A stretch of DNA of 64,000 nucleotides. Source: a virus. The notes under the pieces were generated by a model. The model did no database searches. It had not been told where the DNA came from and saw nothing but the letters and a program-made list of their open reading frames with translations. The translations under genes were made by a program, and so were the position numbers. The stretch is from the IMG/VR virus record IMGVR_UViG_3300032032_000001, positions 1 to 64,000 of that record. The stretch is one strand, 5' to 3'. This document shows, piece by piece, positions 42,102 through 49,558 of this stretch. Positions within the stretch are counted from its first letter, which is position 1, and each line of letters opens with the position of its first letter.

Positions 42102-42381
42102 AGGTAGTTTCCTCCATAAGTTTGTTGTGACAGTACACAACGACACCGTCATGATGATTGTAACAGTTACCATCGCACGGCAGTGATAGCCTGTTCCGGT
42201 TCTCCTTAATGTACTTTGTTAGTTTATCTCTTATTGGGTTAATTGGGCTATTTGTGACTTCATCTGTCTTATACTGAAGAAAGTCGTGTAATTGCTGGGT
42301 AGGCGTTGATGGGCAAGCCCGGACTCCCATCTGCTCCCAAACAATATGCAGCAACTCACTCTTACTCGCACCCGGGTTCAT
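42091..42381 (-). CDS. Hypothetical protein with C-terminal Cys/His cluster
   Basis: Overlaps both neighbours in the operon; LPCDGNCYNH...YCH. Confidence 0.6.
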   Translation of the reverse strand: MNPGASKSELLHIVWEQMGVRACPSTPTQQLHDFLQYKTDEVTNSPINPIRDKLTKYIKENRNRLSLPCDGNCYNHHDGVVVYCHNKLMEETTYGD

Positions 42382-42803
42382 GATAACTCCTGTATACTAA
42401 ACCTGATACCAACAAAGTCGCTATCAGGGCCGTGGTGCTTTTTTACGAACTCCTCTATAAAGCAGGAGTCATCAATAGCTAAGCACTCAGCAATAACGTC
42501 CTCTAGTACCTTGACCAAGTTAGATACGTCGCGTCGCTTATATCTAGTCTTGGCCTTCTTTGGCCACCCCTTGTTATATAACGAGGGTAGGAAATAGTGG
42601 ATATTTAATCGGTACGGGTGATCCGGATTCAGTGGGCGCTTTTTGAAGCCCACCTGCTTCGCAATTTGAACAGAGGCCTTAGCTTTGAACTGCTTCATTT
42701 TAGATGACGGCCTTGGGCCACGAGTCGTGTAAACGTACATGTCATTCACCGAGGGAGGGAGTATGTCAATCTCCGCCTCAAAAACAATTGGTTCAGTCTT
42801 CAC
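42378..42803 (-). CDS. rusA: RusA-like Holliday junction resolvase
   Basis: LPPSVNDMY and RRDVSNLVKVLEDV...IDDS motifs; start uncertain (GTG 42803 preferred over the track's 42884). Confidence 0.75.
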   Translation of the reverse strand: MKTEPIVFEAEIDILPPSVNDMYVYTTRGPRPSSKMKQFKAKASVQIAKQVGFKKRPLNPDHPYRLNIHYFLPSLYNKGWPKKAKTRYKRRDVSNLVKVLEDVIAECLAIDDSCFIEEFVKKHHGPDSDFVGIRFSIQELS

Positions 42804-43359
42804 GCCGCACCCGCTTAAAATTACCCGGAAAGGATTTAGATTTTGATGGCTGCGGCCTTGAGAAAACCTCTTGCCTGTCGCCATCCTCCTGGGTTCGGAA
42901 CCACAACTCCCGACCCAGCCGATCCATACTCTTACTTATTTTACGGAGCCTAGCCTCATGCACGTCTACCTGGGCTTTAAAATAAACGTAGTCTCTTTTG
43001 GCACCTAGGCATGATTTTGTGATGAACGCCTTCCGCAGCTCTGAGTTTGTAAGCTTGCTGTCCCTCGCCGTGGCCAAGGTGGCCTCCGCCGCGACAATTT
43101 CTAACCTAGCTTTGCTTATGGTCGCATAACTACTAGCCTTAGCCAGTTGGTCTGATATGTATTCGAAAAACGACAAATAGGAATCATACAGACCCTTGAT
43201 GTCCTCGTTTGGGAGGTACTTCAGGCCTTGTGGGATCCTAGGCTCCTCACCGGGTGGTTCCCGGTCAGGGGAAAATCCGGTAGCCCGTAAGTCGTTCTCT
43301 AACGTAGTTCTTAGCGCCAGGAAGACATCCTCCTCCTGGTCTGGTTTTTTATCCATCAA
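42793..43359 (-). CDS. Helical coiled-coil protein, possibly UvsY-like recombination mediator
   Basis: All-helical; sits in the recombination cluster; UvsY resemblance is weak. Confidence 0.4.
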   Translation of the reverse strand: MMDKKPDQEEDVFLALRTTLENDLRATGFSPDREPPGEEPRIPQGLKYLPNEDIKGLYDSYLSFFEYISDQLAKASSYATISKARLEIVAAEATLATARDSKLTNSELRKAFITKSCLGAKRDYVYFKAQVDVHEARLRKISKSMDRLGRELWFRTQEDGDRQEVFSRPQPSKSKSFPGNFKRVRRED

Positions 43360-43365
43360 TCCCCC

Positions 43366-44073
43366 TTAGAATTCGGGCTGACACGTGTGTGCGAACTTGC
43401 ATGTACGGCACACCCATTTATTAGGTTCTCTGGGTGGTTCTGTCCCGGCGGTTACATGCGCCTCGACACCCTTTATGACTTCAAGAACCTCCTCCCAGAT
43501 TCGGTTCTCAAACTTAACCTTGAACAGCCGCATAGAGCCAGTTGCACGATTCACATATAAGAGCTGACACCTGGGGATGTTCAGTGCAAACATGTATGCG
43601 TGTATCTGGTAAATATGCTCAGCTTTAGGTTTTGTAAGATTTCTGTAGACGCTTTCGCCGACCGTCTTGATCTCCAAGACCCACTCTTTGTCATAGAAAA
43701 CACCGTCACAGTGCCCAGCTATATGAAGGTCTTCGGAACTGATCGGGACTTCTGACTTGAAGTCTTCGAACTCTTTTTCTAGCTTAGCCTGGATCATGTC
43801 GTGAAGAGCATGTCCCATATCAAAAAGCATCCGAAGATCAGCAGGGATACGGCTCTCAGGCTCCTCCCCAATCCTGTCGTACCAAACAGCACGCTTACAC
43901 GCGCCAGGGTTTAGTGACGACGGGTGGTACACATGGGTTTTTCGGCTCCATGAGTCCTTGTTCATGTCCTCATGGATACGGTCAACCTCATTCATTATAT
44001 TGAAGTCTCTGTCCCACTCCGGCGCTTCCTCTCGAAGACACTTTTCTGGGACCCTAAACTTTTTCTTTGTCAT
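43366..44073 (-). CDS. Cas4-like PD-(D/E)xK exonuclease with Fe-S cysteines
   Basis: HPSSL..AC.R..WY, GHALHD, GHCDG, LEIKT, QIHAYM and C-terminal CRTCKFAHTC. Confidence 0.85.
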   Translation of the reverse strand: MTKKKFRVPEKCLREEAPEWDRDFNIMNEVDRIHEDMNKDSWSRKTHVYHPSSLNPGACKRAVWYDRIGEEPESRIPADLRMLFDMGHALHDMIQAKLEKEFEDFKSEVPISSEDLHIAGHCDGVFYDKEWVLEIKTVGESVYRNLTKPKAEHIYQIHAYMFALNIPRCQLLYVNRATGSMRLFKVKFENRIWEEVLEVIKGVEAHVTAGTEPPREPNKWVCRTCKFAHTCQPEF

Positions 44074-44837
44074 TCTGGTATTCCTTTTGCGAACTCAAGG
44101 AATTTACCGTAACTCATGATGGTGTACTCATTGGTTCCTATTGTAAGCGTGATACGCTGCCCAGTGAGAAGCGCACTTACGTGGTTAAGTGTTATGGTGA
44201 AACTCTTCTTCGGCGGCCTGCCACCAAGACAGGACAGCCCCTCAAATGAGTCCAAAAAGTTATCATCAAGCTCCTGGTGTGGGACGACGGCAACTTCGCC
44301 CCCTTTGTTAAGCTCGATTATGTAGGCTGGTATCTTTCCTTGTGAGTACGCTTGCTTCCTCAGAAACTCTAAGTCTTTCACGCTCACACTCATCTTATTG
44401 CTCTTAGTTGTCTTGGCCTCGACGAGGATACTTGGGGTTATTACATCCCTTCGGTAGCCCCATCTGGATCCGGAGGCGGGCTGTCGCTTACCATCCAGGT
44501 CTTCAGCTATTCTTACTTCTTGTTTTTTGCTGGCCTCATGGTTCGTCAACACGGCTATAGCCTCCTCTATTACTACGTAATATTTATCATTCTCGTAAAT
44601 GTCCTCAGCGCTTTTAGTCCAGTCGATTCTTCCTAGGATCATCCTAGCAAGCTCTAAGAACTTCTCGGGCACATACACCAGCACCGCTAAGCCACTCTCA
44701 ACATGCGTTATGTTGTAGTCCGTATCGAGCCGTGCCGACCCAGGACGCTTATGCATAAAGAGTCCAGGAAGGAACGGTAACGCGTCGATAACGACTAACT
44801 TGCCTTGCGGGCCGGTGCATATACTCAATCTAGCCAT
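44070..44837 (-). CDS. PD-(D/E)xK nuclease (Hjc-like resolvase domain) with extra N-terminal domain
   Basis: KKQEVRIAEDLDGKRQPASGS...RRDV...LVEAKTT. Confidence 0.65.
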   Translation of the reverse strand: MARLSICTGPQGKLVVIDALPFLPGLFMHKRPGSARLDTDYNITHVESGLAVLVYVPEKFLELARMILGRIDWTKSAEDIYENDKYYVVIEEAIAVLTNHEASKKQEVRIAEDLDGKRQPASGSRWGYRRDVITPSILVEAKTTKSNKMSVSVKDLEFLRKQAYSQGKIPAYIIELNKGGEVAVVPHQELDDNFLDSFEGLSCLGGRPPKKSFTITLNHVSALLTGQRITLTIGTNEYTIMSYGKFLEFAKGIPE

Positions 44838-45882
44838 CGGAAACCCTCTTCAAAACTTCTGCCCTAACTTCAGCAACCAGCTTCGGGGACTTCTTCAGTA
44901 CATCAACGACGCCCTCTAGTCCGCCTTCTATCTTGTCCTCGTAATCCAGGATGTAATAGAAGCGACCCTTGTTAAAGACTACGTTATACGCCTTGGCGCT
45001 ATTAGCAAGATCTGCGACCATATCGACCCCCTCATTAAACATGAAGGTGTACTCGCCCTCAGACCCCTCGCTTATCCCATGCTTGCCTTTGGAGATTTTC
45101 CATTTAATGTCTTTACCTACCTTCTCCTTGCCCTTCTTTATAAAGGCCCCGGGGCGTAGGTGGATATCGACAGCTTTGGCGTGCTTGAGGGCGTAGCCCC
45201 CAGGCTGGGTATACGGATTATACTTCGCTGAGTGTGCGTTCATGTTGGCCCGTACAGGGTTAATCATTACAACGCAGGTACCGTTTGGTGTACCGTCCTC
45301 GCCAGGAACACGCATGGCGCTATAGAATTTGCGACAGAAGTTACTAAGCAGTGACGCCCAAGTCGCTATTTTAGCGTCCTCACCTAGCCCTTTGACCACG
45401 TTGTCCCGAGTCTCCCCGGACCCTAACTCGTTGATAACCAGAAGCTGAAATTTCTGAGACTTTACAATCTCAAGCATAACGTCCAGCATAACCTCTGCGG
45501 GCTTATCTGAATCTTCAGAAGCTAGGTCTACGAATAGGAAATTTCCGGTGCCTGATAGATCAACACCCGCAAGCTCCATGAAAGAAGGGTCAGGTTTGTA
45601 GCCAAATGACATCCAGGCGACATTGGACTCAGCGCCATACTTCTTTTGTACCTCTGCGATAAGTCTGTTGGAAAGGTAGTCTTTACCAACGCCGTCAGGA
45701 CCAAATAACTGGATCATTGACCCAGCAGGAAGCCCACCCTTCAGAGCGATATCAAGTGACAATATCCCCGTTGGGAGTCTCGTATCGAACGGGGTAGCTA
45801 CCTCAGACATTGGCTGTATTACAGCGGCTCCGCCCATTCTTTTTTGTACACTCTTAATAAGTTGGCTTATGTCGTTAGCCAT
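44830..45882 (-). CDS. recA: RecA/UvsX-like protein with degenerate ATPase motifs
   Basis: LPTGILSLDIALKGGLPAGSMIQLFGPDGVGKD, PGGYALKH and KISKGK show clear RecA architecture, but key catalytic residues are altered. Confidence 0.8.
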   Translation of the reverse strand: MANDISQLIKSVQKRMGGAAVIQPMSEVATPFDTRLPTGILSLDIALKGGLPAGSMIQLFGPDGVGKDYLSNRLIAEVQKKYGAESNVAWMSFGYKPDPSFMELAGVDLSGTGNFLFVDLASEDSDKPAEVMLDVMLEIVKSQKFQLLVINELGSGETRDNVVKGLGEDAKIATWASLLSNFCRKFYSAMRVPGEDGTPNGTCVVMINPVRANMNAHSAKYNPYTQPGGYALKHAKAVDIHLRPGAFIKKGKEKVGKDIKWKISKGKHGISEGSEGEYTFMFNEGVDMVADLANSAKAYNVVFNKGRFYYILDYEDKIEGGLEGVVDVLKKSPKLVAEVRAEVLKRVSDG

Positions 45883-46127
45883 TATTCCTCCTCAAGCTCC
45901 TTCTTGATCTTCTTGAATTCATCAGCAAGCTCAGGGCTTACCTCCTCAAGATTCTCGTCGTAGAGCTTAGTCATGTCGTTAAATAGTTTCATTTTGAAAT
46001 CTTTGATCATGCTCGGAGCCTCGCCAGACGCGACCTTTTCCATCGCCTCATCCTCGGACTCACAGAGCTTCATTTTGATTAGGGTAGCAACCACTTGAGT
46101 TGAGTCCCCGTACTTTTCCATAGCCAT
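45882..46127 (-). CDS. Hypothetical acidic protein
   Basis: AAGGAG RBS; MEKYG and MEKVAS motifs. Confidence 0.6.
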   Translation of the reverse strand: MAMEKYGDSTQVVATLIKMKLCESEDEAMEKVASGEAPSMIKDFKMKLFNDMTKLYDENLEEVSPELADEFKKIKKELEEE

Positions 46128-46621
46128 TACTTATCTCCTTCTGGGTCTAGTCTGATCAGTGAATCGCGCTCTTTACCCATGATTGTTTTAGCATGGTCCG
46201 CTCCGATCACCCCGAGGTTCACGGTGAGGTACGCACCATTAGTTAGTTCGATTATTGCGTTGTCGTCACCTGTGCACAGGAATAGGTTTCCGATAGTGTC
46301 CCCCTCCTCCAAGCAGGTATTTACCGCCCCCGCGATTTCTCGCAAGGCTTCCCTTCGGGCGTCGAAAATATTACTGAGTTCTGTTGCCACGATTCTCTCC
46401 TTCTGGTCTCTTGTTTTTGCTTTTATCAACCACTCCTCCTTGGAAGCCGTTGATCTTGTTGAAAAGCCTCTTGAGTAAATTAACCTAACAGGTCGCCTAC
46501 TCTTTGTATATCTTGCTCCACGTTCGGAGTGGTTATGCTCCCAGACGCGCCTACCCACATCGGTTGTTATGCCGGTGTAGATAGACCCGCCTGAGCACAT
46601 TACGGTGTAGACTGCCCACAC
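46127..46621 (-). CDS. GIY-YIG nuclease (UPF0213/YhbQ-like) with C-terminal extension
   Basis: WAVYTVMCSGGSIYTGITTDVGRRVWEHN...GARYTKSRRPVRLIY...ASKEEWLIK. Confidence 0.85.
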   Translation of the reverse strand: MWAVYTVMCSGGSIYTGITTDVGRRVWEHNHSERGARYTKSRRPVRLIYSRGFSTRSTASKEEWLIKAKTRDQKERIVATELSNIFDARREALREIAGAVNTCLEEGDTIGNLFLCTGDDNAIIELTNGAYLTVNLGVIGADHAKTIMGKERDSLIRLDPEGDK

Positions 46622-47458: not shown

Positions 47459-47672
47459 GAGCAGCCTCCTTCGTAACACTCCCACACAGAAAGCATCTGA
47501 TTTCGACGCTTAGTGCTGAGTCGTTAACGTACGAAACGCCTTCACAGAATGCTTGCGCCTCGGCCTTTGATACGGGCCCGAAAATTGAGCCACCACTATT
47601 TACTTCCTCGTAGTCGGAATCGTCTAGATCCCCTACAACAACAACATGGTATAGGTGCGGTATATCCGTCAT
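47445..47672 (-). CDS. Hypothetical protein
   Basis: ATGA coupling to the polA stop; GGAG RBS. Confidence 0.55.
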   Translation of the reverse strand: MTDIPHLYHVVVVGDLDDSDYEEVNSGGSIFGPVSKAEAQAFCEGVSYVNDSALSVEIRCFLCGSVTKEAAHDAG

Positions 47673-49558
47673 TTACACTCCAGCCAGTTCGAGCCGTATT
47701 TGCTCGTGGTTTCGAGCGGTACATCTAAATCAAAGTAAAAAGGGTGCCCCATAAGATATGCGATACGCTCGTTTAGCTCTTTGTCTTCAGACCACTCATT
47801 TGGTATTTCAAATACAATTTCATCATGAACCTGGATGATCATTCGACACCCAGACTTTGTAACTAGCGGGTCTTCCCACAGCTTTACCATCGCCATTTTA
47901 GTGATGTCTGCCGCAGAACCCTGAATAGGTGAGTTCTTCACCTTGCGCTCCGCTTGTGCAACATCACCACCCACCCGGGACCTTAGTCCTGGGACAAGTC
48001 GGCGACGCCCTAAGATCGTGGAGCAAAACCCAACATCTCTTGCGTCACCGATGGCTCTCTTGAAATACTTAGTCACCTTCGGAAAGGCGGAGAAGTACTG
48101 CTTGATAAGCAACCGAGCCTCATCAATATGGCAACCTAAGGTTCCCGCCAAAGCACCGGCACCCTGTCCATACATGAGTCCGAAGTTGATAGCCTTTGCG
48201 CCTTTTCTGTGGCCAAGAAGCTTTTTCTCATATTCGGAGATCTCTTCATCGTTATCGTCTTTCCTGCGAGCCTTGATGATGTCCTCATATGGAACCTTAA
48301 ACATCTTGGCCGCTGTAGACGAGTGAACGTCGAGACCGCTGCGTATGGACTCTGATAGGGTATTGTCTCCGGACAGGTGCGCCAAGATCCTCATCTCTAG
48401 TTGGGCATAATCTGCTGCGAGCAGGGTGTACCCAGAGCTGGGGAGATAGGCTGACCTAATGTACGGTGGCTGGTTTTGTAGGTTAGGATCGCTCGAACTA
48501 AGTCGCCCCGTTCTTGCGCCCGTCTGATTGAACGATGCGTGGATTTTCCCATCGACATGGATCTTTTCAAGGAGGTTAGAGATGTAAGTCCCAAGCTTCT
48601 TATCCAGATCCCTGTACTCCAGGAGCTTCTCTGCGTAGTCACAACCGTCCTTAGCCCACTTACCCAAGACATCTTTATTGAGTTGGGGTTTTCCTTTTTC
48701 CGTGTGAGACAGGGGCCTGCGCCCAAGATCCCCGAAAAAGAACTCACCCATTTGATCATTACTCTTTAGGTTTACATATAAGCGACCAGTAGCCCTCCCA
48801 AACCATTTCTGGATTGACAGGAGTTTGTCCTCGATAATCGGAGCCTGTTCGAGGAGGTCGTCTCTGTTGATGACTACCCCGTGGCGCTCCATCTCCCAGA
48901 GGACTCTGGTGAAAGGAAGCTCCGTTTTCACGTAGTAATCCCACAAGGTGGGGTATTCGTCGTCTGGTATTTCGAGAGTCAGCAACTCTTCCCTGACCTC
49001 AAAGAAAAGCTTATATGTGGCGTATGCATCAAGAGCAGCGTAGTTGCAGACTATGTCCTCGTTCTCAGCGTCAAGGAGAACTTCATGAAGCTTCCTCTTC
49101 CTCAATTGTTTACCGAACACAGCCTTAAACGGAACCATGTCGATGCCGAGGTAGTGTTTAGATAGAAACTTTAAGTCATGAGCGAGGGTGTCATCCACCA
49201 GAGCGTGCATAACCATTGTGTCGTAGACACGGTAATGATTATGTTGTGCGTGGCGGTAGACATCGATCCCTATATTAAGAAGCATCCAACAGTCAAAGTT
49301 GGCGTTATGCATAATAAGTTTTATTTCGGGATCTTCTAATAGGTCTTTGAAGTAAGGAATTACTTCAGGCCAGATGGCCCAACGTTCTTCGCCATCACTG
49401 ATAGCCAGGATGATGGCGCGGTCTTTTTGCCGAGACAGGCCGGTTGTTTCAGTATCAACCGCTAATATTGGTTTAGCGCGTAAGCGCTCCACAACTTCCA
49501 GAGCCTCGTCCGGGTCAGCGACACGCACGGGTTCCGGGAGAACAGAAAACATTCCCAT
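47669..49558 (-). CDS. polA: Family A DNA polymerase (3'-5' exonuclease + polymerase)
   Basis: DTETTG, HNANFD and YAALDA exonuclease motifs; TGRLSSSDPNLQN, DYAQLEMR, KAINFGLMYG and QVHDE polymerase motifs. Confidence 0.95.
   Translation of the reverse strand: MGMFSVLPEPVRVADPDEALEVVERLRAKPILAVDTETTGLSRQKDRAIILAISDGEERWAIWPEVIPYFKDLLEDPEIKLIMHNANFDCWMLLNIGIDVYRHAQHNHYRVYDTMVMHALVDDTLAHDLKFLSKHYLGIDMVPFKAVFGKQLRKRKLHEVLLDAENEDIVCNYAALDAYATYKLFFEVREELLTLEIPDDEYPTLWDYYVKTELPFTRVLWEMERHGVVINRDDLLEQAPIIEDKLLSIQKWFGRATGRLYVNLKSNDQMGEFFFGDLGRRPLSHTEKGKPQLNKDVLGKWAKDGCDYAEKLLEYRDLDKKLGTYISNLLEKIHVDGKIHASFNQTGARTGRLSSSDPNLQNQPPYIRSAYLPSSGYTLLAADYAQLEMRILAHLSGDNTLSESIRSGLDVHSSTAAKMFKVPYEDIIKARRKDDNDEEISEYEKKLLGHRKGAKAINFGLMYGQGAGALAGTLGCHIDEARLLIKQYFSAFPKVTKYFKRAIGDARDVGFCSTILGRRRLVPGLRSRVGGDVAQAERKVKNSPIQGSAADITKMAMVKLWEDPLVTKSGCRMIIQVHDEIVFEIPNEWSEDKELNERIAYLMGHPFYFDLDVPLETTSKYGSNWLECK

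What the first reader, a model, noticed from the sequence alone, without database searches (positions are those of the whole stretch)
44830..45882. RecA homologue with several ATP-hydrolysis residues replaced
Seen versus canonical RecA: Walker A GKT becomes GKD; the catalytic-Glu motif IDAEH becomes MSFGY; Walker B VDSV becomes INEL; the sensor INQIR becomes INPVR. The scaffold, GGxALK and KxxKxK motifs are retained in a full-length 350-aa ORF. Inference: a pseudo-ATPase kept under selection, acting as a strand-annealing or DNA-coating protein, or as a dominant-negative co-polymer or decoy against host RecA/SOS.
Basis: partly seen in the sequence, partly recalled or inferred. Interest (0 to 1): 0.7.

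Follow-up and report, generated by a model that had tools for sequence, protein, structure and literature searches.

The report
Phage RecA with rewired ATP site
An uncultured marine phage of about 150-180 kb encodes a full-length RecA recombinase in which four supposedly essential ATP-site residues are exchanged in matched pairs. This points to a re-plumbed, still working ATPase rather than a dead one, and gives a natural test case for how P-loop ATPases work.

Summary
ORF 44830-45882 (-) is a 350-aa RecA homologue with four changes, in E. coli numbering: T73D, E96G, D144N/S145E and Q194P. The "pseudo-ATPase or decoy" reading is not supported.

The protein belongs to a large, uncultured, virus-only RecA clade: 500 clusters (at 50% identity) match at E<=1e-30.

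- Across 259 members, Walker A Asp occurs with Walker B Asn in 118 of 120 cases, and Asn never occurs without it. The pair switched together in 7-8 independent lineages and never in opposite directions.
- The catalytic Glu sits either on strand beta2 (139 members) or just after Walker B (120 members), never in both places and never in neither.
- Both swaps join residues that touch each other in RecA structures.
- The Walker A Lys, the adenine-pocket Asp, the trans-acting KxK, Arg196 and the N-terminal polymerisation helix are all kept.
- dN/dS is about 0.03-0.04.
- The gene is translationally coupled inside a replication-recombination operon: PolA, Cas4-like exonuclease and two resolvase-like genes.

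Best reading: the phage's own filament-forming recombinase with a rewired, probably active, Mg-ATP site. Biochemistry is untested.

The scan had already noted the same family in other genomes, and one follow-up reached the same reading. No paper was found describing it.

The parts
44830..45882 (-). 350-aa RecA-like recombinase gene (P0001)
   Evidence: ORF. Pfam RecA 91 bits. phrog_97 UvsX-like, 9.7e-31. AF2 model pLDDT 91.4. Foldseek TM 0.75-0.79 to active-filament RecA chains.
45838..45867 (-). N-terminal helix (residues 6-15), equivalent to the RecA polymerisation helix
   Evidence: Predicted helix 6-15. Conserved in homologues. The Foldseek alignment spans the full length.
45679..45702 (-). 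Walker A GPDGVGKD: Lys67 kept, Asp68 at the Mg-binding Ser/Thr (K+1) position
   Evidence: D68 codon is GAC in 17 and GAT in 3 relatives.
45598..45615 (-). Strand beta2 tip WMSFGY: Gly94 at the catalytic Glu96 position
   Evidence: All four Gly codons are used among relatives.
45589..45591 (-). Asp98, aligned with RecA Asp100 of the adenine pocket; invariant
   Evidence: Invariant in the 74-sequence alignment A1. Aligned with D100.
45427..45444 (-). Walker B LLVINE: Asn151 replaces Asp144, and Glu152 (D+1) replaces Ser145
   Evidence: N151 codon AAC 14 / AAT 6; E152 codon GAG 16 / GAA 6.
45250..45264 (-). INPVR: Pro209 at the Gln194 gamma-phosphate sensor position; Arg211 (= Arg196) invariant
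45175..45201 (-). GGYALKHAK, end of loop L2: invariant His234 at the RecA Phe217 / Rad51 His352 interface position
   Evidence: The equivalence F217 = His352 is from PMC2919713.
45082..45099 (-). KISKGK: the trans-acting KxK (K265/K267 = RecA K248/K250), invariant
45882..46127 (-). 81-aa acidic ORF translationally coupled upstream; function unknown
   Evidence: An 80-aa ORF sits in the same position in relatives. No Pfam or PHROG hit.
44070..44837 (-). 255-aa gene overlapping the recA-like stop by 8 nt; its C-terminal half matches phrog_2002 'Holliday junction resolvase'
   Evidence: Conserved next to the gene in relatives.
43366..44073 (-). Cas4-like PD-(D/E)XK exonuclease
   Evidence: Pfam Cas_Cas4 and PDDEXK_1. 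phrog_1706, 7.7e-40.
42378..42884 (-). RusA-like Holliday junction resolvase
   Evidence: phrog_140, 5e-10. RusA in the same position in relatives.
47669..49558 (-). Family A DNA polymerase heading the same leftward block
   Evidence: ORF. PF00476 on the orthologue in relatives. Primase, DnaB-like helicase and an SF2 helicase lie further upstream.

Best explanation
This is the phage's own RecA/UvsX-type recombinase. Inferred: it polymerises on single-stranded DNA and drives strand invasion for recombination-dependent replication and repair, working with the neighbouring Cas4-like exonuclease and the two resolvase-like genes. Its ATP site has been rebuilt by two compensated exchanges between contacting residues. 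(1) The Mg-binding hydroxyl of Walker A (T73) became a carboxylate (D68), and its hydrogen-bond partner, the Walker B Asp (D144), became an amide (N151). One negative charge therefore stays at the Mg site. (2) The water-activating Glu moved from the tip of strand beta2 (E96, now G94) to the residue directly after Walker B (S145, now E152). The side chain at that position already touches the Glu96 carboxylate in DNA-bound RecA. A later step replaced the gamma-phosphate sensor Gln194 with Pro. Shown here: homology, fold, selection, the covariation and the gene context. Inferred: that D68 ligates Mg2+, that E152 activates the attacking water, and that ATP is still hydrolysed and not only bound.
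For: Homology and fold: Pfam RecA 9.5e-26. E. coli RecA aligns over residues 10-343. The AF2 model has pLDDT 91.4 and its best Foldseek hits are active-filament RecA chains, TM 0.75-0.79.

Selection: dN/dS is 0.034 and 0.044 against the two nearest relatives. Synonymous sites are saturated in all the more distant comparisons, and the key codons vary synonymously.

Family size: 500 representatives of 50%-identity clusters match at E<=1e-30.

Covariation 1: in 259 full-length members, K+1 Asp with Walker B Asn occurs 118 times, non-Asp with Asp/Glu 139 times, Asp with Asp 2 times, and non-Asp with Asn 0 times. With the trait columns removed from the tree, there are 12 and 11 state changes; of 9 independent pairs, 8 changed together, none went the opposite way and 1 did not differ (p=0.008, FastTree). 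An IQ-TREE subset gave 7 together, 0 opposite and 1 unchanged (p=0.016). The sister pairs are shown.

Covariation 2: a beta2 acidic residue (137 Glu, 2 Asp) and a D+1 Glu are perfectly exclusive, 139 versus 120.

Contacts from the literature: the Ser145 hydroxyl lies 2.42 A from the Glu96 carboxylate in RecA-DNA (PMC2919713). The [S/T]K+1-AspWB hydrogen bond is described as universal (PMC9599734 and its preprint). In F1-ATPase structure 1H8E, the D+1 Asn257 is as close to AlF4 (4.0 A) as the catalytic Glu188. Clp1 polynucleotide kinase is an active P-loop enzyme with Asn at Walker B and a compensating Glu elsewhere.

Retained features: K67, D98 (=D100), R211 (=R196), K265 and K267 (trans KxK) and H234 are invariant, and the N-terminal helix is present.

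Context: the gene is translationally coupled inside a PolA - primase - helicase - exonuclease - resolvase block, and this block is conserved in relatives.
Against: There is no biochemistry and no ligand-bound structure. The tools gave no model coordinates, so the geometry of D68, N151 and E152 was not measured. The Glu relocation happened only 2-3 times on the tree, so its coupling cannot be tested statistically despite the perfect exclusivity. Losing the Gln194 sensor could uncouple ATP binding from DNA binding. Two members carry Asp at both positions. The phage also has a second RecA-derived protein with canonical cis motifs, so the division of labour between the two is open.
Confidence: 0.68

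Rival explanations
1. It is an ATP-binding but hydrolysis-poor recombinase. Mg-ATP serves only as an allosteric cofactor that locks a long-lived active filament, as with RecA K72R/E96D or Rad51 with Ca2+. The rewiring would then tune turnover downward, not preserve catalysis.
For: Strand exchange by RecA-family proteins needs ATP binding, not hydrolysis (established knowledge). The gamma-phosphate sensor Gln194 is replaced by Pro in the window's subclade. A carboxylate ligand at K+1 could hold Mg-nucleotide more tightly (inference). The D/N covariation demonstrates only that the Mg site is under constraint; it does not prove hydrolysis.
Against: If hydrolysis were dispensable, losing Glu96 would not need a Glu gained at D+1. 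Yet all 120 Gly94-type members carry Glu at D+1 and none lacks both. The trans-acting KxK, which activates hydrolysis in RecA, is invariant.
Confidence: 0.2
2. One reading: a catalytically dead pseudo-ATPase that coats or anneals DNA without nucleotide, or poisons or decoys host RecA to block SOS.
For: All four textbook catalytic positions differ from RecA. The score is far below the RecA equivalog cut-off, 115 versus 325 bits. The polymerisation helix is kept, so co-polymerisation is not formally excluded.
Against: The P-loop GxxGxGK, the adenine-pocket Asp and the trans KxK are invariant. The substitutions covary in compensated pairs with repeated reversals to GKT/GKN + DE inside the derived clade, which would be pointless in a site that binds nothing. 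Identity to cellular RecA is only about 21-25%. The gene sits in a recombination module, not among host-takeover genes. The clade's ancestors have fully canonical sites.
Confidence: 0.05
3. It is one half of a two-RecA system and works only with the phage's second RecA-derived protein (283 aa, canonical GKS/TE/IDS/NQ, no N-terminal helix, no KxK). The second protein could act as a nucleating or capping partner, like Rad51 paralogues, or the 350-aa protein could be the accessory partner.
For: Both genes are present in the window's genome and in all four complete relatives at 64-82% identity. The short protein aligns to RecA residues ~42-313 and lacks the filament-forming elements.
Against: The two genes lie about 55 kb apart in different gene blocks. 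A more distant relative of the rewired clade (G005) and the five clade-B genomes each show only one RecA-like gene. The 350-aa protein has every filament element itself.
Confidence: 0.1

Closest known systems
Bacterial RecA (E. coli RecA; Pfam PF00154, TIGR02012)
   Same: Same three-part architecture: N-terminal helix, ATPase core and C-terminal domain. Foldseek TM is 0.75-0.79. P-loop Lys, Asp100, Arg196, GGxALK and the trans KxK are kept.
   Different: Identity is about 21-25%, and the TIGR02012 score is 115 against a cut-off of 325. Changes are T73D, E96G, D144N, S145E and Q194P, with His at the Phe217 position. It is found in viruses only: none turned up in one genome per species for 185,579 prokaryote species.
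Phage UvsX / phage RecA-like recombinases (T4 UvsX, UvsXt/UvsXp, mycobacteriophage and cyanophage RecA; phrog_97)
   Same: A phage-encoded RecA-family recombinase in a replication-recombination module. Best PHROG match is phrog_97 at 9.7e-31.
   Different: Characterised UvsX proteins keep GK[ST], the Glu96-equivalent, the Walker B Asp and K/RxK/R (PMC12890299). The nearest cultured-phage RecAs checked (Lbo-JY46, Willez, MA9V-3) are canonical and share <=28% identity. No cultured phage in the collection belongs to this clade.
ASCE ATPases with a Walker B 'DE' (AAA+, ABC, SF1/SF2 helicases)
   Same: The presumed catalytic Glu directly follows the Walker B residue (hhhhNE, or hhhhDE in relatives).
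   Different: These are different folds and classes. Within the RecA/F1 class, a Glu on the neighbouring strand is described as the class-specific rule (PMC9599734 and preprint), so this would be a convergent shift inside RecA.
Clp1 polynucleotide kinase (C. elegans, PDB 4OI1): Asn at Walker B with a compensating Glu
   Same: A natural acid/amide exchange around the Walker B position in an active P-loop enzyme, with the opposite arrangement in yeasts.
   Different: It is a kinase, not an ATPase. The compensating carboxylate is on the WB+1 strand, not at Walker A K+1, and Thr K+1 is kept.
Rad51/RadA/Dmc1
   Same: An invariant His at the interface position equivalent to yeast Rad51 His352 / RecA Phe217.
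   Different: Rad51 lacks the KxK motif and uses the beta2 Glu and a canonical GKT. The Pfam Rad51 match is only marginal, 23 bits.

Membership tests
RecA superfamily recombinase (Pfam PF00154) | Domain match above the Pfam gathering score | tested here: met
   91.2 bits against a cut-off of 27, residues 5-286.
RecA superfamily recombinase (Pfam PF00154) | Full-length fold: N-terminal helix, ATPase core and C-terminal domain | tested here: met
   AF2 pLDDT 91.4. Foldseek aligns 315-350 columns to RecA chains, TM 0.75-0.79.
Bacterial RecA orthologue (TIGR02012 equivalog) | Score above the curated equivalog cut-off | tested here: not met
   115.4 bits against a cut-off of 325.3.
Canonical RecA/UvsX ATPase site | Walker A GxxxxGK[ST] | tested here: not met
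   GPDGVGKD: the Lys is kept, with Asp at K+1.
Canonical RecA/UvsX ATPase site | Catalytic Glu at the tip of strand beta2 (E96) | tested here: not met
   Gly94. A Glu is found instead at Walker B +1.
Canonical RecA/UvsX ATPase site | Walker B hhhhD | tested here: not met
   LLVIN, Asn151.
Canonical RecA/UvsX ATPase site | Gamma-phosphate sensor Gln194 | tested here: not met
   Pro209. Gln is kept in earlier-branching members of the clade.
Canonical RecA/UvsX ATPase site | Trans-acting [KR]x[KR] at the filament interface | tested here: met
   K265-G-K267, invariant in 74 sequences.
RecA-type recombinase (function) | ssDNA-dependent ATPase, filament formation and strand exchange | not testable with these tools
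   Needs purified protein. Only sequence, fold and context evidence is available.
Pseudo-ATPase RecA-fold proteins (e.g. degenerate Rad51 paralogues, ImuA) | The nucleotide-site residues are no longer constrained | tested here: not met
   The site residues are near-invariant and change only in compensated pairs. dN/dS is about 0.03-0.04.
Sak4 / RadB core-only RecA-like proteins | ATPase core only, with no N-terminal helix or C-terminal domain | tested here: not met
   Both extra domains are present.

The most novel reading that the evidence does not exclude
A whole virus-only RecA lineage has rebuilt the P-loop active site while staying an active, filament-forming ATPase. The class-defining catalytic Glu of RecA/F1 enzymes moved onto the Walker B strand. 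[quoted passage not shown] If so, it is a natural double-mutant cycle that directly tests current models of proton trapping and Mg coordination in P-loop NTPases. It may also yield recombinases with altered filament kinetics or metal use.
Probability: 0.55. Interest if true: 0.8.

Novelty: new variant of a known kind. Interest (0 to 1): 0.68.

Why it matters
Walker A Ser/Thr and Walker B Asp are treated as near-universal in P-loop NTPases, and the position of the catalytic Glu is used to define the RecA/F1 class (PMC9599734). This lineage is large and strongly selected, it breaks both rules in a compensated way, and intermediate and reverted forms are available. That makes the roles of these residues directly testable with natural sequences and simple revertant mutants. 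It also shows that motif-based calls of 'dead ATPase' can mislead, and it points to an abundant, uncharacterised recombinase type in large marine phages.

Tried and rejected
- Pseudogene or decay: rejected. The frame is intact, dN/dS is about 0.03-0.04 and the key codons vary synonymously.
- Misalignment that hides canonical residues nearby: rejected. HMMER, MAFFT and Foldseek agree on the register, and the motifs are unambiguous in 266 sequences.
- A cultured-phage relative: none found. tblastn of P0001, P0144 and P0205 against 50,697 phage records gave only canonical RecAs at <=28% identity, or nothing.
- A prophage or cellular copy that might hint at the host: none. The single-pattern scan of 185,579 species genomes was negative, which is weak evidence.
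- Measuring active-site distances in the AF2 model: not possible, because the tools expose no coordinates.
- Folding the second RecA-like protein from a 5-sequence alignment: the model was unusable, pLDDT 45.7.
- The genome search on metagenome loci L003 and L006: those records are not held. IMG/VR loci were used instead.
- Literature: five searches found no description of a GKD/hhhhNE RecA. This covers open-access text only.
- Statistical test of the Glu relocation: underpowered, with 2-3 events.

Full report
**1. What is there**

The window is the first 64 kb of a 148-kb IMG/VR virus record estimated 83% complete. Complete relatives are 173-182 kb with terminal repeats, and several come from marine samples including Tara.

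ORF 44830-45882 (-) encodes 350 aa. Its ATG overlaps the stop of an upstream 81-aa ORF (TAATG) behind a GAGGAGGA ribosome-binding site. Its stop overlaps the next gene's start by 8 nt.

It matches these profiles and structures:
- Pfam RecA at 9.5e-26.
- phrog_97 'UvsX-like recombinase' at 9.7e-31.
- E. coli RecA chains at about 1e-20 over residues 10-343.
- TIGR02012 at only 115 bits against a cut-off of 325, so it is not a bacterial-type orthologue.

An AlphaFold2 model built from a 74-sequence alignment has pLDDT 91.4 and pTM 0.89. It shows an N-terminal helix (residues 6-15), the core and a C-terminal domain. Its best Foldseek matches are RecA chains from active filaments (7jy6, 8trg, 3cmx, 8s70), with TM 0.75-0.79 and rmsd 3.0-3.7 A.

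**2.

The HMMER alignment to E. coli RecA gives the substitutions below. Coordinates were verified by translation.

| Site | E. coli RecA | This protein | Change |
|---|---|---|---|
| Walker A | GPESSGKT | GPDGVGKD | T73 -> D68 |
| Strand beta2 tip | FIDAEH | WMSFGY | E96 -> G94 |
| Walker B | VIVVDS | LLVINE | D144 -> N151, S145 -> E152 |
| Sensor | INQIR | INPVR | Q194 -> P209 |

These features are kept:
- K72 = K67.
- D100 = D98.
- Y103 = F101 (aromatic kept).
- R196 = R211.
- GGNALK = GGYALK.
- K248/K250 = K265/K267.

**3. The family**

A word-indexed search found about 95 close relatives at 41-89% identity on contigs up to 190 kb. A profile search of 1.84 billion cluster representatives found 500 at E<=1e-30, and the best 150 all scored above 226 bits.

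No cultured phage among 50,697 records belongs to this clade. The nearest hits are canonical RecAs at <=28% identity. A pattern scan of one genome per species for 185,579 prokaryote species found none. The clade is therefore large, uncultured and, as far as seen, virus-only.

**4. The decisive result: compensated covariation**

I tabulated five positions in 259 full-length sequences. The set spans the window's family, its wider clade and 14 cellular RecAs.

(a) Walker A K+1 against Walker B:

| K+1 residue | Walker B residue | Count |
|---|---|---|
| Asp | Asn | 118 |
| Thr/Ser/Asn | Asp or Glu | 139 |
| Asp | Asp | 2 |
| non-Asp | Asn | 0 |

On a FastTree built without the trait columns there are 12 and 11 state changes. 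Of 9 phylogenetically independent pairs on supported branches, 8 changed together, none went the opposite way and 1 did not differ (p=0.008). An IQ-TREE 'quick' tree of 89 representatives gives 7 together, 0 opposite and 1 unchanged (p=0.016). Sister sequences show this plainly: GKD...INE next to GKN...IDE or GKT...IDE, and GKD...INS next to GKN...IDS.

(b) The catalytic Glu. An acidic residue at the beta2 position (137 Glu, 2 Asp) always comes with Ser or Gly after Walker B (139 sequences). Gly at the beta2 position always comes with Glu after Walker B (120 sequences). There are no exceptions. This happened only 2-3 times on the tree, so a sign test has no power.

Rooted on cellular RecA, the order of events is:
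1. Canonical T|E|DS|Q.
2. Glu relocation: a clade of 121, support 98, plus one separate case.
3. The Asp/Asn inversion: many gains and reversals, including in the branch that keeps the beta2 Glu.
4. Gln to Pro: a clade of 97, support 99.

The window's protein carries the most derived state.

**5. Why these pairs make sense**

Both pairs are contact pairs in known structures.
- The K+1 Ser/Thr hydroxyl ligates Mg2+ and is hydrogen-bonded to the Walker B Asp in P-loop NTPases generally. Both residues are called strictly conserved (PMC9599734 and its preprint).
- In DNA-bound RecA, the Ser145 hydroxyl is 2.42 A from the Glu96 carboxylate, and the D144-S145 peptide flip pushes Glu96 toward the gamma-phosphate (PMC2919713).
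- In F1-ATPase structure 1H8E, the D+1 Asn257 side chain is about as close to AlF4 (4.0 A) as the catalytic Glu188 (supplement of PMC9599734).
- Most ASCE ATPases place the catalytic Glu exactly at D+1, and the RecA/F1 class is described as the exception.
- A natural precedent for Asn at Walker B with a compensating carboxylate in an active enzyme is Clp1 polynucleotide kinase.

My inference: D68 supplies the Mg ligand and the site's negative charge, N151 keeps the hydrogen bond, and E152 takes over from Glu96. I could not measure this geometry because model coordinates are not exposed.

**6. Other signs of a working filament ATPase**

Invariant across the 74-sequence alignment are K67, D98, R211, K265, K267 and H234. 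H234 occupies the RecA Phe217 position, where Rad51-type recombinases have their conserved interface His.

Selection is strong. dN/dS is 0.034 and 0.044 against the two closest relatives, and synonymous sites are saturated beyond that. The codons for D68, G94, N151, E152 and P209 vary synonymously.

**7. Context**

The gene lies in a leftward block in this order:
- SF2 helicase, DnaB-like helicase and primase.
- A 383-aa ORF of unknown function.
- Family A DNA polymerase.
- Small ORFs and a GIY-YIG protein.
- The 81-aa ORF, then this RecA-like gene.
- A 255-aa protein with a resolvase-like C-terminal half.
- A Cas4-like exonuclease and a 188-aa ORF.
- RusA.
- Two further ORFs of 96 and 270 aa, then a metallophosphoesterase.

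The core order, PolA ... RecA-like - 255 aa - exonuclease, is conserved in relatives. RusA follows only in the close relative, not in the distant one. This is a replication-recombination module, which fits a bona fide recombinase.

**8. A second RecA-derived gene**

The same genome encodes a 283-aa protein at about 100.5-101.4 kb of the record. It has canonical GKS, TE, IDS and NQ motifs. It lacks the N-terminal helix, the KxK and the GGxALK motif.

It is present in all four complete close relatives. It was not found in a more distant member of the rewired clade or in the clade-B genomes. Its role is unknown, and its fold prediction failed. It could be a Rad51-paralogue-like partner, which I keep as a minor rival.

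**9. Verdict**

My confidence in each reading:
- Best explanation, 0.68: the phage's filament-forming recombinase with a rewired, probably catalytically competent Mg-ATP site.
- Main rival, 0.2: it binds ATP but hydrolyses poorly.
- Dead-site or decoy reading, about 0.05.

I found no paper describing this arrangement. Other readers of this scan noted the same family in other genomes, and one follow-up reached the same conclusion. I saw those notes only after my own covariation analysis.

I class it as a new variant of a known kind.

Noticed in passing
G000:C1 about 100554-101405 (-) = L002:1300-2151 (-), outside the window: A second RecA-derived gene of 283 aa with canonical GKS / TE / IDS / NQ motifs. 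It lacks the N-terminal polymerisation helix, the trans KxK and GGxALK. It aligns to RecA residues ~42-313. It is conserved in four complete relatives (48-72% identity) and sits next to a 430-aa AAA+ ATPase and an anaerobic RNR activase. It may be a paralogue-type partner or regulator of the rewired RecA.
   Followed up: partly
window 45882-46127 (-): An 81-aa, very acidic ORF (ending ...KKIKKELEEE) is translationally coupled (TAATG) to the RecA-like gene. An 80-aa ORF is in the same place in relatives. It has no family match. It is a candidate mediator or SSB-tail-like partner.
   Followed up: no
window 44070-44837 (-): A 255-aa protein overlaps the recA-like stop by 8 nt. Only its C-terminal half (residues 98-191) matches phrog_2002 'Holliday junction resolvase'; the N-terminal half is unassigned. 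A separate RusA-like resolvase lies at 42378-42884, so the module carries two resolvase-like genes.
   Followed up: no
window 46127-46621 (-): A 164-aa protein with an N-terminal GIY-YIG nuclease domain (Pfam 1.4e-13) and an unassigned C-terminal half lies between the polymerase and the RecA-like gene. It is absent at this position in the relatives L003-L005, so it may be a mobile homing-type endonuclease.
   Followed up: no
L006:1467-4235 (+), a relative's contig: In a distant relative (188-kb contig) the family A DNA polymerase upstream of the RecA-like gene is 922 aa and carries intein and HNH matches, that is, an intein-interrupted polymerase.
   Followed up: no
Clade members P0127, P0159 and relatives (metagenome proteins): A small subclade of six has Glu at the Gln194 sensor position (ILEVR / ILEAR) together with Gly94 and a D+1 Glu. 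This is a third solution at the sensor site.
   Followed up: no
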